From positions 288,001-352,000 of the forward strand of contig CAWCNY010000005.1 in NCBI GenBank assembly GCA_963797095.1: a stretch of 64,000 bases of DNA. The letters run 5' to 3'. The translations under genes and the position numbers were made by a program. The first letter of the stretch is position 1, and each line of letters opens with the position of its first letter. Source of the DNA: an uncultured Chloroflexia bacterium (lineage in GTDB: Bacteria > Chloroflexota > Chloroflexia > QHBQ01 > JADMIH01). This document shows positions 36,243-39,597 of this stretch, piece by piece. The notes below the pieces were generated by a model. That model did no database searches and was not told the DNA's origin. It worked only from the letters and a program-made list of their open reading frames with translations.

Positions 36243-36881
36243 ATGTTCCGCACTCATACAGATCCTACTATTGAGATGATGCAAGCCCTGGGGTTCACAC
36301 AAGACGATCTGGAGAATAACCGCAAAGGCCAACTCTCAGTCTCACAACGCGAGCAAATGGCCCTCAGGAAGCAATCGGCTATCAGGACTGGGCAAAGGGC
36401 CTCAAAGAGTACACCCCTGGTCATGCTCTACGTGATCGTGGTTCTTGGCATAATAGCTGTTGCGTTCATATCTACCGGTTCGTTCCAATATGTGCAAGAC
36501 GCTCTGGGCGAGTGGGCGATTCCTGCAATGATTGGCATAGCTGCATTGATACTTCTGATCGTGATAAGGATCCCCCGCCAGTTCCAGCGATCTGTGGCCG
36601 AATATAATCAGGGAGCCGCCAGTATGCCGCTCGACTATGTAGTGCTCTCTGTAATGGGCGAGATGAAGGTCAGAACCCGCTCGTTCGGGAGTAACGTTGA
36701 AACTCCCGACACTGTTACCCTCTATTACCTCAATGTAGGAGGTAAGGATTTCTCAGTTTCGGAATCCAGGTACAAAGCGCTCAAGAACGCCATCAACAGA
36801 GGCGCTGTGTACAGACTCTACTATGCCGAGTATGGAAAAACGACCTTCATACTCAGTGCGGAAGCGGCTGGTAACCGGTAA
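36243..36881 (+). CDS. Hypothetical two-TM membrane protein
   Basis: ALGFTQDDLENNRKGQLS, two TM helices, YRLYY...LSAE C-terminus. Confidence 0.7.
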   Translation: MFRTHTDPTIEMMQALGFTQDDLENNRKGQLSVSQREQMALRKQSAIRTGQRASKSTPLVMLYVIVVLGIIAVAFISTGSFQYVQDALGEWAIPAMIGIAALILLIVIRIPRQFQRSVAEYNQGAASMPLDYVVLSVMGEMKVRTRSFGSNVETPDTVTLYYLNVGGKDFSVSESRYKALKNAINRGAVYRLYYAEYGKTTFILSAEAAGNR

Positions 36882-36944
36882 CGATTCCACCAATTCCATC
36901 ACTGGGCATATGCTGCTTAGCTCGACTGATCTGAAAATCGTGGC

Positions 36945-38260
36945 TCAAGCTGCCTCAACCACGGGGGCCAGTGTCACCTGGAAGCCGAGTCTTTCAATCT
37001 GCTTCGCCAACCTTCTTGCGGTGGCCTCTGGTCTGCGCTTCTCGAAGTAATCAGCTCCCAACTCTCGATAGGGCTCCTTACGAAGGATAACATGGTAAGC
37101 TATCACCAAAATCGAATGAGCTACCGCCACCAAAGCCCGCTTGTCCCCACGTCTGGTGACCAACCGCCGGTACTGGGCCGCCAGGTACGTCCCTCTGGTG
37201 CGTACCGCCGCCCGTGCTGCTTGCACAAGTCCCACCCGAAGCCACGCGTCTCCTTTGCGCGTCTTGCCCGACCGCCTCTTACCCGCACTCTCGTTGTTCC
37301 CAGGTGCCACTCCCGCCCAGGCTGCCAGGTGTCCGGCCGTCGGGAAACGGGTCATGTCCGTCCCGATCTCGGCCACCAACATCTCAGCCACCAACATCTC
37401 AGCCACCAACATCTCAGCCACCAACATCTCAGCCAACTCCCGCCCTACACCCGGGATTGTATCAAGCAAGCTGATCACCTCTTCGTTCCCATCAGCCTGA
37501 CACGCTGCGCGGATCTCGTCATCAAAGTGGTCAATCGTTTCGTCCAGAGAGTCGATCTGGCACAACAACTCGGTCAACAGGAAGCGGTGATGAGGTCGCA
37601 CTCTGCTTCTCAAGGCCCCTTCCAATTCGGAGCGTTTGCTGCGCAGCCTCCCCACCGCCAAACTGGCAAGCACTTTGGCATCGGTTTCGCCACTGATGAT
37701 GGCCGTAAGGATCGCCCGCCCCGACACACCCATCACATTGGTAGCTACATCGCCCAGCTTGAGGTTAGCTCCCTCACGTCCTTCGTCCTCAGCACTTTCT
37801 GCACACGGTTCACCAACGTAGCTCGCTGGCGCACGAAGTTGGTGCGCTCACGGGTCAAGTCTCGCAAGTCACGCTGAGATTGTGGTGGGATGAAGGAGGG
37901 CTGCACTAAACCATGACGCAGCAAATCAGCCAACCACTCGGCGTCTTTGACATCTATCTTGCGGCCAGGCAGCTTCTTTACGTGCTGGGCATTGAGTACC
38001 CAGACAGTGAAATTGCCTTCCAACAGGTTGAAGATGGGTTTCCAATAGACCCCGGTGCTTTCGAGGGCTACATGTGTCACTCCCCCCTCGCTCAACCAGT
38101 CACTGAGATGCAGCAATTCGGGGATGGTGGTGCCAAAGGAGCGGGTCTGGGTCTCGCTGTGAGGCGACACAGTGGACCCTGCAAGCATTCGACACGCTAC
38201 CACACTTTGTTTATGCACGTCCAATCCAGCGCAGCGCTCAAACATTACGTTCATCGCCAA
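36945..38260 (-). pseudogene. IS110 recombinase, frameshifted
   Basis: GLDVHK, LESTG, KIDVKDA, IPGVG, ESAGK; 14-nt insertion at 37776-37789; AEMLV x4 expansion. Confidence 0.9.
37372..37435 (+). repeat. 15-bp tandem repeat x4 inside IS110
   Basis: GCCACCAACATCTCA x4, encoding AEMLV on the minus strand. Confidence 0.95.
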
Positions 38261-38274
38261 TACCTCCTGAGTTC

Positions 38275-38495
38275 ATTGAGCTCAACAAGGGCGAGTTGTC
38301 GAGGCTGGATATCGGCGGGGAGGAGGATACCCGATGGATCAGAAACTGATCTACGCGCTTCCAGCTTCCATTGCACAGAGTGGGCCGTGGAAAACGGAGC
38401 AGCAAATGGTGGTGCTTGCGGGTATCCGGGTCAGTCTTTGTATCAGGCTCATAGCACCAAGTCGAGGCGACCGCATGGTTCGCCGAATCCATCCA
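38275..38495 (-). ncRNA. Candidate IS110 bridge RNA (ends approximate)
   Basis: Loop with CTCGACT and TACAAAG matching both target halves; second loop closed by GGATACCCG/CGGGTATCC containing AGATCAG that matches the element end. Confidence 0.7.
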
Positions 38496-38679
38496 TTGCT
38501 AGCATACATCTATACACCCATTTTCATCCGGGGTGGTGACCGTGACCCGGGGGTCATGGCGTCTTTGTACAAAAATGAAGGGAGGTGAGGACGGGTACAA
38601 CGGGTAAAGGGACCCGCAAACCCTTTGTTGTAAGATGGAAGTCTACCACAACACCATCTGAAAACAAGGAGAACTCACG

Positions 38680-39515
38680 ATGTCCCTACCCGACCCGATT
38701 ATACAGATTCTGCTCCATTTCCGACCAGTTTTCACTCGTCCTACCTGGCAAAAGGCTTTGGTATTGGTGGTCGGTACTATCCTGGCGCGTGGTCGACGTA
38801 CCGTAACAGCGGCCCTCAAGCAGATGGGCTTGCAAGACGAGGAGGACTTCACTCTGTTCCATCAGGTGCTCAATCGAGCAAGCTGGTCCTGCCTGACACT
38901 GAGTCGTTTGCTGCTCCAATTGCTGGTTAGCACCTTTGTTGGTGCTGGAGGCACAGTCCACATTGCTATTGACGAAACGCTGGAAAGAAGATGGGGCCGC
39001 AAAATCACCAAGCGTGGTCATTACCGAGACGGCGTACAATCGAGTAAGGAGCAATCGGTCTCAACAAGCGGGTTGCGCTGGGTGGTAATGATGCTGGTAG
39101 TACAAGTACCCTGGTCAAGTAGAGAGCGGGCTCTTCCTTTCTTCTCGGTGCTCGCGACTACTCCTAAAGTGAGCGGTGGACCATAGAGGTGACCTTTGAA
39201 GAGAGCCGAGCGCACCTGGGAGTGGAAACGCAACGGCAATGGTCAGACCTGGCAATTGAGCGCAGTACACCCTGCCTACTGGGCATGTTCAGCCTGGTTG
39301 CGCTATTTGGAAAGGCCCTGCACCCAGACGGCAAAGTGCCGGTACAGCGCACGGCGTGGTACGCCAAGAGGGAGGCTACCTTCTCTGATGTGTTAGCCGC
39401 CGTCAGGCGTCATTTGTGGGGCAACTTCACTTTTCAGACATCCCCAACAGACCCTGATGTCTGTTTAGTCCCACGCTCACACGTGGACAGGCTCGCTTAC
39501 GCGGTCTGCTATTGA
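38680..39515 (+). pseudogene. IS701-like DDE transposase with internal deletion
   Basis: IAIDETLERR..GLRW..ALPF joined out of frame near 39175 to RWTIEVTFEESRAHLG. Confidence 0.8.
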
Positions 39516-39597
39516 ATTGGTAATGTACAAAGTCGAGCTTAGAGCCTTATAATCTTAGCAGCAGCCATGCTACCTCTCACAATGCAAGGAGCCTGAT

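What the first reader, a model, noticed from the sequence alone, without database searches (positions are those of the whole stretch)
38275..38495. Readable bridge RNA whose guides match the observed target and donor
Seen on the recombinase strand: the stem GGTCG/TGACC encloses CTCGACT (38460-38466, target left half plus CT core), a small hairpin, and TACAAAG (38436-38442, reverse complement of core plus right half). A second 9-bp stem (38325-38333/38419-38427) encloses AGATCAG (38346-38352), the reverse complement of the element end CTGATCT. I could not identify the fourth guide. Known: IS621-type bridge RNAs carry paired target and donor guide loops that each end at the core. Inference: a natural programmable recombinase aimed at a transposon IR; the CT core reads on the strand opposite the recombinase gene.
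Basis: partly seen in the sequence, partly recalled or inferred. Interest (0 to 1): 0.72.

Follow-up and report, generated by a model that had tools for sequence, protein, structure and literature searches.

The report
Bridge RNA of a decayed IS110 element
The stretch upstream of a broken jumping-gene recombinase encodes a folded guide RNA that spells out both the insertion site (the end of another jumping gene) and the element's own ends; this kind of system has been known since 2024, and this copy belongs to a branch with an unusual layout.

Summary
An IS110-family element lies on the minus strand (36928-38562). It is inserted in the left terminal inverted repeat of an IS701-family IS. Its 5' non-coding end (about 38306-38495) folds into a two-loop bridge RNA.

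Forty-one homologous loci support four helices by covariation. They also show that four loop segments covary with their own DNA:
- the 5' target guide with the right flank;
- the 3' target guide with the left flank plus core;
- the 3' donor guide with the element's right end plus core;

The "CT core on the opposite strand" is real. It equals the guide order published for IS1111-type seekRNAs, not IS621, although the RNA lies upstream as in IS621.

The fourth guide is non-canonical. It has the same strand sense as the third and lies 23 nt from the crossover, beyond a conserved DNA hairpin.

The recombinase is broken identically in both genomic copies, so this copy is probably dead. No expression data exist. 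This scan has reported bridge RNAs on other DNA before. Verdict: new variant of a known kind, moderate interest.

The parts
36928..38562 (-). IS110-family element (1635 bp without the flanking core)
   Evidence: Boundaries come from two copies with different outer flanks and from the empty site at 39524-39537.
38563..38564 (-). Core dinucleotide at the left junction: AG on the recombinase strand, CT on the + strand
   Evidence: These are the only bases shared by both junctions and the empty site.
36926..36927 (-). Core dinucleotide at the right junction (AG / CT)
38306..38495 (-). Bridge RNA, from the closing stem P1 5' arm to its 3' arm. The true RNA ends are unknown.
   Evidence: P1 (38495-38481 with 38317-38306) appears in the MFE folds. 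The four inner helices are supported by covariation.
38468..38472 (-). Target-loop outer stem, 5' arm (GGTCG)
   Evidence: Helix 1 is 87.1% paired across 42 sequences; 3 of its 5 pairs show double changes.
38460..38467 (-). 5' target guide CCUCGACU. Its 7 nt CUCGACU are the reverse complement of core plus right flank (AGTCGAG).
   Evidence: Cognate match of 6 nt or more in 11 of 22 homologues against 3.6% of non-cognate pairs.
38446..38458 (-). Inner hairpin of the target loop
   Evidence: Helix 2 is 93.2% paired; 4 of its 5 pairs show double changes.
38436..38442 (-). 3' target guide UACAAAG, identical to left flank plus core on the recombinase strand
   Evidence: Match of 6 nt or more in 35 of 40 homologues against 7.7% of non-cognate pairs.
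38434..38435 (-). Handshake-type dinucleotide AC, equal to the first two bases of the element
   Evidence: In 32 of 41 loci the identity with the left junction runs two bases into the element (my count on the rows).
38429..38433 (-). Target-loop outer stem, 3' arm (TGACC)
38419..38427 (-). Donor-loop outer stem, 5' arm
   Evidence: Helix 3: 8 of 8 pairs show double changes.
38408..38414 (-). 5' donor guide CACCACC (the fourth guide), identical in sense to left-end segment 38532-38538
   Evidence: Match of 6 nt or more in 22 of 41 against 12.5% of non-cognate pairs; the reverse complement gives 0 of 41. Its 7-mers hit only the bin just before the left-end repeat: 24 hits against 0-4 in any other bin. 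The relation persists where the RNA lies at the other end of the element.
38355..38403 (-). Inner stem-loop of the donor loop (GCUGCUCC ... GGAAGCGC)
   Evidence: Helix 4 is 95% paired.
38346..38352 (-). 3' donor guide AGAUCAG, identical to right end plus core on the recombinase strand. It can also pair with CUGAUC at 38342-38337.
   Evidence: Match of 6 nt or more in 22 of 23 homologues. The hairpin with its own complement is visible.
38325..38333 (-). Donor-loop outer stem, 3' arm
38540..38559 (-). Conserved DNA (or leader) hairpin at the left terminus, 3 nt from the core
   Evidence: One search lists it as an 8-pair stem. RNA-parameter MFE folds of the corresponding left-end windows have 6 or more pairs in total in 26 of 40 homologues, with varying sequence.
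38532..38538 (-). Left-end segment CACCACC, cognate of the fourth guide
38520..38527 (-). Left subterminal inverted repeat ATGAAAAT
   Evidence: Present, with at most 1 mismatch, upstream of the gene in most of the 80 loci.
36932..36938 (-). Right subterminal inverted repeat ATTTTCA, 4 nt from the core
37745..38254 (-). Recombinase N-terminal ORF (DEDD / RuvC-like domain), ending in a premature stop
   Evidence: PF01548, E 2e-28.
37776..37789 (-). 14-nt insertion (two 7-mers) that shifts the frame. Its placement is ambiguous by a few bases.
   Evidence: Three-frame translation compared with intact homologues. A soil-metagenome relative lacks bases here (table 4).
36945..37736 (-). Recombinase C-terminal ORF (Tnp domain) in another frame
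   Evidence: PF02371, E 1e-21.
37366..37435 (-). 15-nt tandem repeat, 4.7 copies (AEMLV repeated in frame)
   Evidence: The second genomic copy of the element is 165 bp longer overall. A metagenome relative skips 45 nt here (table 5).
39524..39537 (+). Intact copy of the target, inside the right IR of the host IS
   Evidence: The 20-bp IR pair of an intact host IS copy is shown.
38563..39543 (+). Remnant of the IS701-family host IS (internally deleted). Its left IR is split by the insertion; the outer half is at 36916-36927.
   Evidence: PF13546 on the 168-aa fragment. Intact copies of about 1.49 kb exist elsewhere in the genome.

Best explanation
The left non-coding end of a decayed IS110-family insertion sequence encodes a bridge (seek) RNA on the recombinase strand. 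The RNA has a closing stem and two internal loops.

The first loop names a 12-bp target, TACAA-AG-TCGAG, inside the terminal inverted repeat of an IS701-family IS. Its 5' guide pairs with the recombinase-strand right half plus core. Its 3' guide pairs with the opposite strand of the left half plus core.

The second loop names the element itself. Its 3' guide copies the right end plus core. Its 5' guide copies a 7-nt left-end segment that lies between a terminal DNA hairpin and the left subterminal repeat.

A working recombinase of this clade would bring target and circularised element together on this RNA and exchange strands at the CT/AG core.

Shown here: the anatomy, the structure covariation, and the covariation of all four guides with their DNA.
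Inferred: that the RNA is made, that it binds the enzyme, and that it directs recombination.

In this genome both copies carry the same frameshift and an in-frame repeat expansion, so the system is most likely inactive.
For: - Domains: PF01548 and PF02371 on the two ORFs.
- Family: a profile of 7 intact homologues matches the IS621 transposase, 8wt6_A, E 1.3e-25, with the D, E and DxxD motifs and the ES serine aligned.
- Boundaries and target: two independent insertions plus one empty site.
- Structure: 25 pairs in 4 helices, 89.8% of cells paired against 77.5% when shuffled. There are 148 double-change cells against 43.7, with 0 of 500 shuffles as high. Slid controls give 28-50%.
- Strand: conserved G.U pairs (26, 37 and 39 sequences at three positions) fit the recombinase strand only.
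- Guide-to-DNA matches of 6 nt or more, cognate against non-cognate: 35/40 vs 7.7%, 11/22 vs 3.6%, 22/23 vs 11%, 22/41 vs 12.5%. Opposite orientations sit at background.
- After removing duplicate guides, 0 of 2000 permutations reach the observed mean for any of the four relations.
- Chance of the three 7-mers together is about 1.4e-6.
- Six intact clade members in the same genome carry the same RNA layout with other guides.
Against: - There is no expression evidence. No RNA run holding the stretch was listed, and no sigma-70-type promoter was found in 36850-38700.
- Rfam 15 has no matching family.
- The single-sequence MFE fold does not reproduce the target loop. Its z-score is only -0.96 for the 308-nt end and -2.11 for the 201-nt core.
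- The recombinase is broken in both copies.
- Nine or ten intact targets in IS ends remain unoccupied.
- The fourth guide has the same sense as the third and is not next to the core, which the IS621 model does not explain.
- The 41 loci are related to one another, so the counts overstate the number of independent events.
Confidence: 0.88

Rival explanations
1. The fourth relation (38408-38414 equal to 38532-38538) is not an RNA-DNA guide contact. Both segments would instead be copies of one recognition element, such as a protein-binding site, a promoter part, or a leader that mimics the donor loop. The left donor half would then be recognised by the terminal DNA hairpin and by protein.
For: - The two segments are identical, not complementary, and have the same sense as the third guide.
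- The segment lies 23 nt from the core, beyond a conserved hairpin.
- No RNA segment complementary to the first left-end bases was found, apart from the 2-nt handshake.
- A DNA stem-loop as a second specificity layer is published for ISPpu10 targets (10.64898/2026.03.19.712850, abstract read).
Against: - The variable positions after the conserved ACC covary in many distinct combinations.
- The relation persists in the sub-clade whose RNA gene lies more than 1.3 kb away, at the other end of the element. It is clear in 1 of 4 loci (L063, 8 nt); the other three share 5 nt.
- A protein site would not need to covary.
Confidence: 0.3
2. The region is only a structured 5' leader controlling recombinase translation, and the matches to flanks and ends are coincidence or carry-over of junction sequence.
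For: - The RNA lies directly upstream of the RBS and start codon.
- The 3' target guide plus handshake equals the present left junction over 9 nt, which could in principle be copied junction DNA.
Against: - The joint chance of the matches is about 1.4e-6.
- All four relations covary across homologues with different targets.
- The same layout occurs downstream of the gene in a sub-clade and in IS4321 of R751. The family's RNA guidance is experimentally established (PMC11208160, PMC11187229).
Confidence: 0.03
3. The element is not dead. Its RNA is still used in trans by one of the six intact clade recombinases in the same genome, or the frameshift is bypassed.
For: - Two copies at different sites share the identical frameshift and are otherwise 100% identical, so the lesion may predate the second insertion.
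- Intact relatives exist in the genome.
Against: - Those relatives are only about 55% (N-terminal) and 46-52% (C-terminal) identical and carry their own RNAs.
- Intact target sites in IS ends are unoccupied.
- Gene conversion, or a lost or unassembled intact copy, explains the shared lesion equally well. The genome is 93% complete.
Confidence: 0.1

Closest known systems
IS621 bridge RNA (IS110 group; Durrant et al. 2024, PMC11208160; Hiraizumi et al. 2024, PMC11208158)
   Same: - The RNA is encoded in the left non-coding end, upstream of a DEDD recombinase.
- The target loop comes first and the donor loop second.
- Each loop is a stem, a 5' guide, an inner hairpin, a 3' guide and a stem.
- The 5' guide ends in CU and the 3' guide in AG, so both include the core.
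- Two bases after the 3' target guide read the donor (handshake).
- A profile of the clade's proteins matches the IS621 transposase.
   Different: - In IS621, CT is on the recombinase strand and the left target is joined to the left end (PMC13626964, passages). Here the strand the RNA treats as top is antisense to the recombinase, so the RNA's 'right donor' is the element's right end.
- The subterminal repeat is 7-8 bp rather than 2-3 bp.
- The left-donor guide does not sit at the core and has the same sense as the right-donor guide.
- The window's recombinase halves gave no single-sequence match to any PDB chain at E 0.001 or better. The IS621 match appears only with a profile of homologues.
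IS1111-family seekRNAs (ISEc11, ISKpn4, ISPa11; Siddiquee et al. 2024, PMC11187229) and IS4321 in plasmid R751
   Same: - The complement of the top (transposase) strand precedes the bottom-strand match (passages).
- I saw the same order and the same stem / guide / hairpin / guide / stem layout in the 3' non-coding region of IS4321 (sequences printed).
- Subterminal inverted repeats are present.
- The target is the terminal IR of another transposon, as for IS4321/IS5075 (title of Partridge and Hall 2003, seen only in reference lists).
   Different: - The RNA is upstream of the gene, not downstream.
- The repeat is 7-8 bp, against the usual 11-13 bp.
- The left terminal extension is about 35 nt with a hairpin, against 7 bp.
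- The clade proteins translated are 402-418 aa, against about 340 aa. An intact clade homologue (L022) is only 22% identical to the IS4321 transposase.
ISPpu10 sequence-structure dual match (bioRxiv 10.64898/2026.03.19.712850; abstract only)
   Same: A DNA stem-loop next to the crossover site is conserved alongside the RNA-guided match.
   Different: There the stem-loop is in the target. Here it is in the donor's left end, and its role is untested.

Membership tests
IS110-family DEDD recombinase | N-terminal DEDD (RuvC-like) domain plus C-terminal Tnp domain with a catalytic serine | tested here: met
   PF01548 (E 2e-28) and PF02371 (E 1e-21). Close homologue L022 scores 286.5 bits on NF033542, cut-off 140. 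In the profile alignment to IS621, the D, E, DxxD and ES motifs align. The same motifs are readable in the window's frames.
IS110-family DEDD recombinase | Uninterrupted reading frame | tested here: not met
   A 14-nt insertion after ...QKVL shifts the frame, and an AEMLV repeat is expanded. Both genomic copies have the same 175-aa open frame.
IS621-type bridge RNA | Encoded on the recombinase strand in the long non-coding end | tested here: met
   The left end is 308 nt and the right end 16 nt. Conserved G.U pairs fit only this strand.
IS621-type bridge RNA | Two internal loops, each closed by a stem and holding an inner hairpin | tested here: met
   Four helices; 19 of 25 pairs show double changes; 0 of 500 shuffles as high.
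IS621-type bridge RNA | The two target guides pair with opposite strands and overlap at the core | tested here: met
   CUCGACU and UACAAAG against TACAAAGTCGAG. Homologues.
IS621-type bridge RNA | The 5' guides read the bottom strand where top is the recombinase strand; CT core on the recombinase strand; left target joined to the left end | tested here: not met
   The 5' target guide is complementary to the recombinase strand. The core on that strand is AG here, and AG or AA across the clade. The IS621 rule was read.
IS621-type bridge RNA | 3' donor guide complementary to core plus adjoining element end | tested here: met
   AGAUCAG against ...CAGATC|AG. Match of 6 nt or more in 22 of 23 homologues.
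IS621-type bridge RNA | 5' donor guide pairs with the other strand, directly beside the core | tested here: not met
   The only cognate of the 5' donor segment is 23 nt inside the left end and in the same sense.
IS621-type bridge RNA | RNA is expressed, binds the recombinase and is required for recombination | not testable with these tools
   No RNA run holding the stretch was listed.
IS1111-type seekRNA element | Top-strand complement lies 5' of the bottom-strand match | tested here: met
   Rule from PMC11187229. Seen directly in IS4321.
IS1111-type seekRNA element | Subterminal inverted repeats (7-17 bp per PMC11208160; usually 11-13 bp per PMC11187229) | tested here: inconclusive
   ATTTTCA / TGAAAAT, 7-8 bp, is at the lower limit.
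IS1111-type seekRNA element | Long non-coding region downstream of the transposase gene | tested here: not met
   It is upstream in the window and in 41 aligned loci. It is downstream only in a sub-clade: L058, L061, L063, L085.
IS1111-type seekRNA element | Transposase related over its full length to that of IS1111 | tested here: inconclusive
   22% identity over 335 aa to the IS4321 transposase. No tree with ISfinder references was made.

The most novel reading that the evidence does not exclude
This clade uses a donor-recognition geometry not described for bridge recombinases. Both donor guides would read the same DNA strand. The left-donor guide would address a subterminal segment next to the left inverted repeat, and a conserved DNA hairpin would bridge the 20-25 nt between that segment and the crossover. 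The donor would then be recognised by sequence plus structure. The same RNA module has moved between the two ends of the element within one clade.
Probability: 0.3. Interest if true: 0.6.

Novelty: new variant of a known kind. Interest (0 to 1): 0.4.

Why it matters
Bridge and seek RNAs are under active development as programmable recombination tools, and the rules in use come from IS621 and a few relatives.

This clade mixes features of the two published groups. The RNA is upstream, but the polarity is IS1111-type and there are short subterminal repeats. Its left-donor contact does not fit the IS621 model.

If the fourth relation is a true guide contact, it would show a second way for the RNA to hold the donor. 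It would also add a structural element (the terminal hairpin) to the donor code.

For this genome the result is ordinary biology: a dead insertion sequence that once homed to the ends of another insertion sequence.

Tried and rejected
- Rfam 15 at E up to 10 gave only two chance matches (Ref64, Prion_pknot) and no bridge-RNA family.
- Single-sequence folding of the whole left end was not distinctive (z -0.96). RNAalifold on the MAFFT alignment returned only 10 pairs, so I wrote the helices by hand from column counts and tested them.
- Sigma-70 promoter scan: 0 sites in 36850-38700. I saw TAnAnT-like boxes a few bases after ATGAAAAT in several homologues but did not test them.
- Expression: no RNA holder was listed.
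- I looked for an RNA segment complementary or identical to the first left-end bases and found none beyond the 2-nt handshake.
- I looked for a reverse-complement cognate of the fourth guide anywhere in the elements and found no enriched bin.
- A wobble-asymmetry test of which strand the fourth guide reads was uninformative, because the positive control (the 3' target guide) showed no asymmetry either.
- phmmer of the two window ORFs against PDB gave no hit at E 0.001 or better. A profile was needed.
- Choi et al. 2003 on IS621 is not held.
- A Monte-Carlo version of the chance estimate timed out and was replaced by the analytic one.
- Reading the RNA from the + strand was considered and rejected. 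Conserved G.U pairs would become A.C mismatches, and no guide order would fit.
- Placement in the IS1111 or IS110 group by a protein tree was not done, for lack of labelled references.
- Supplementary files of the cited papers are closed. Predicted bridge RNAs of ISfinder elements in those files may already include relatives of this clade.

Full report
**What is there.** On the minus strand lies an IS110-family element, 36928-38562. Its recombinase gene starts at 38254 behind an AGGAGG box. It is split into an N-terminal ORF (37745-38254, PF01548, E 2e-28) and a C-terminal ORF in another frame (36945-37736, PF02371, E 1e-21).

Comparison with intact homologues shows two lesions:
- a 14-nt insertion made of two 7-mers, right after ...QKVL;
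- an in-frame expansion of a 15-nt unit (AEMLV, 4.7 copies).

A second copy in the same genome is identical except that it is 165 bp longer, in the repeat region. It has the same 175-aa open frame. Contigs of two soil metagenomes hold 90-97% relatives. One skips 45 nt of the repeat, and one lacks bases at 37770-37782. Both lesions are therefore peculiar to this genome's copies.

**Boundaries and target.** The two copies share nothing outside the element except TGTACAAAG on the left and AGTCGAG on the right, read on the recombinase strand. The uninterrupted 14-mer TGTACAAAGTCGAG lies at 39524-39537. Only AG (CT on the + strand) is common to both junctions, so it is the core.

The 12-mer TACAAAGTCGAG occurs 11 times in the 6.0-Mb genome:
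- eight in both ends of four intact IS copies of about 1.49 kb;
- one in the window's right IR;
- one 170 bp from the second copy, forming a small IR pair;
- one elsewhere.

The host IS is IS701-family (NF049999, 333.8 bits against a cut-off of 170) with 20-bp terminal IRs. The window's copy is internally deleted. Both insertions have the left end facing the interior of the host element.

**The observation.** The three 7-mers are expected 0.019, 0.005 and 0.015 times in the 308-nt left end, jointly about 1.4e-6.

**Comparative test.** A scan of one genome per species returned 80 loci with relatives of the N-terminal domain. The best hits are in Chloroflexota; others are in Acidobacteriota, Deltaproteobacteria, Spirochaetia, Bacteroidota and Methanotrichaceae.

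Forty-one loci with an upstream non-coding region of 150-300 nt were aligned with the window (42 rows). The rest were left out for one of three reasons: too little upstream sequence, a short left end, or being exact duplicates. L085 was dropped from the guide counts because its row was misaligned; its RNA lies downstream.

I wrote four helices from column counts. They hold 89.8% standard pairs against 77.5% in shuffles and 28-50% when slid. They have 148 double-change cells against 43.7, with 0 of 500 shuffles as high. Three positions keep G.U in 26, 37 and 39 sequences, so the RNA is on the recombinase strand. A closing stem (38495-38481 with 38317-38306) appears in the MFE folds.

**Guides.** I compared each locus's loop segments with its own DNA and with the DNA of all other loci. 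Matches of 6 nt or more:

| Loop segment | DNA it matches | Cognate | Non-cognate |
|---|---|---|---|
| 3' target segment | left flank plus core, same sense | 35 of 40 | 7.7% |
| 5' target segment | right flank, reverse complement | 11 of 22 | 3.6% |
| 3' donor segment | right end plus core, same sense | 22 of 23 | 11% |
| 5' donor segment | 16 nt just before the left subterminal repeat, same sense | 22 of 41 | 12.5% |

The opposite orientations are at background: 7 of 40, 1 of 22, 0 of 23 and 0 of 41.

With duplicate guides removed (34, 19, 16 and 39 distinct guides), none of 2000 permutations reaches the observed mean. In 37 of 41 loci the 3' target segment is contiguous with the left junction for 6-11 nt. 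By my count on those rows, 32 run two bases into the element, which is the handshake position.

**The fourth guide.** In the window it is CACCACC at 38414-38408. Its cognate is at 38538-38532.
- Its 7-mers hit only the 20-nt bin before ATGAAAAT: 24 hits against 0-4 in any other bin. They hit nowhere in reverse complement.
- The relation also holds where the RNA lies downstream of the gene (L058, L061, L063, L085). L063 shares 8 nt and differs from the others at the same position as its left end does; the other three share only 5 nt.

Between this segment and the core lie 3 variable bases and a hairpin (38559-38540). MFE folds of the corresponding left-end windows have 6 or more pairs in 26 of 40 homologues, with varying sequence.

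[quoted passage not shown] The element carries CT at both boundaries in the order left end, recombinase, right end, and the left target is joined to the right donor at the left end (PMC13626964, passages).

Here the RNA itself looks canonical: the 5' guide ends in CU and the 3' guide in AG. But the strand it treats as top is antisense to the recombinase. Across the clade the right end reads ATTTTCA, four bases, then AG or AA.

Siddiquee et al. report exactly this reversal between families. In IS1111-family seekRNAs the top-strand complement comes first; in the IS110-type ISEc21 it comes second (PMC11187229, abstract and passages). I saw the same order and loop layout in the 3' non-coding region of IS4321 in plasmid R751.

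What is unusual is the combination:
- the RNA is upstream;
- the subterminal repeats are only 7-8 bp;
- the left terminal extension is about 35 nt, with a hairpin;
- the proteins are 402-418 aa, and an intact clade homologue is 22% identical to the IS4321 transposase;
- similarity to IS621 is detectable only by profile.

**What remains open.** The fourth guide is identical, not complementary, to the recombinase strand, like the third guide. Both would therefore pair with the same DNA strand, and the fourth does not touch the core. Neither the IS621 rule nor its mirror image predicts this.

I could not tell whether it is a true RNA-DNA contact. An attempted wobble-asymmetry test was uninformative. 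Nothing is known about expression here: no RNA run was listed, and no consensus promoter was found.

**Literature.** Three full-text searches listed no paper describing this layout. I read passages of PMC11208160, PMC11208158, PMC13626964 and PMC11187229, and the abstracts and outlines of two preprints. Supplements are closed.

**Earlier notes.** Earlier notes of this scan report bridge or seek RNAs on other DNA, including elements homing to IS ends. None concerns this genome's locus.

**Verdict.** The finding is a real, well-supported bridge RNA in a dead copy of an IS110-family element. It is a new variant of a known kind.

Noticed in passing
Own genome: C6:793661(-), C6:822457(-), C8:92755(+), C8:94400(+), C5:606371(+), C5:608043(+): Six further IS110-family genes of the same clade have open frames of 426-527 aa. 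They are about 55% identical in the N-terminal domain. Each is preceded by the same two-loop RNA layout with different guides. In both C8 and C5, two of them sit head to tail about 1.6 kb apart.
   Followed up: partly
L023, L031, L032, L041, L069, L098 (left flanks); L023 vs L047: Several clade members are inserted directly behind a sequence that looks like the right end of another clade member (ATTTTCA, four bases, AG). L023 abuts a 93%-identical L047-like copy. These elements appear to home to each other's ends.
   Followed up: no
L058, L061, L063, L085 (3' non-coding regions): A sub-clade with about 45-56% identical proteins carries the homologous two-loop RNA downstream of the recombinase gene. 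It keeps the hairpin, the fourth-guide cognate and ATGAAAAT in a short left end. The RNA module has moved between the element's ends within one clade.
   Followed up: partly
window 37366-37435; own genome copies listed: IS110 elements of this genome carry short tandem repeats. There is a 15-nt unit in the coding region, 4.7 copies here; the second copy of the element is 165 bp longer. Other copies carry GGATCAGATC x4 and GAACGC x10 between the RNA and the RBS.
   Followed up: no
G000:C1 about 486326-486510 (L021): The second copy sits in one IR of a roughly 190-bp unit bounded by the same inverted 14-mer as the IS701-family element. This is a MITE-like derivative or a solo IR pair.
   Followed up: partly
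window 38563-39543: The host IS701-family copy is about 990 bp, against about 1.49 kb for intact copies. Its transposase is reduced to fragments of 168 and 108 aa.
   Followed up: partly
window 38336-38352: The 3' donor guide forms a perfect 6-bp hairpin with its own complement (GAUCAG UUU CUGAUC). A comparable self-pairing is visible in many homologues. It might mask the guide, but this was not tested.
   Followed up: no
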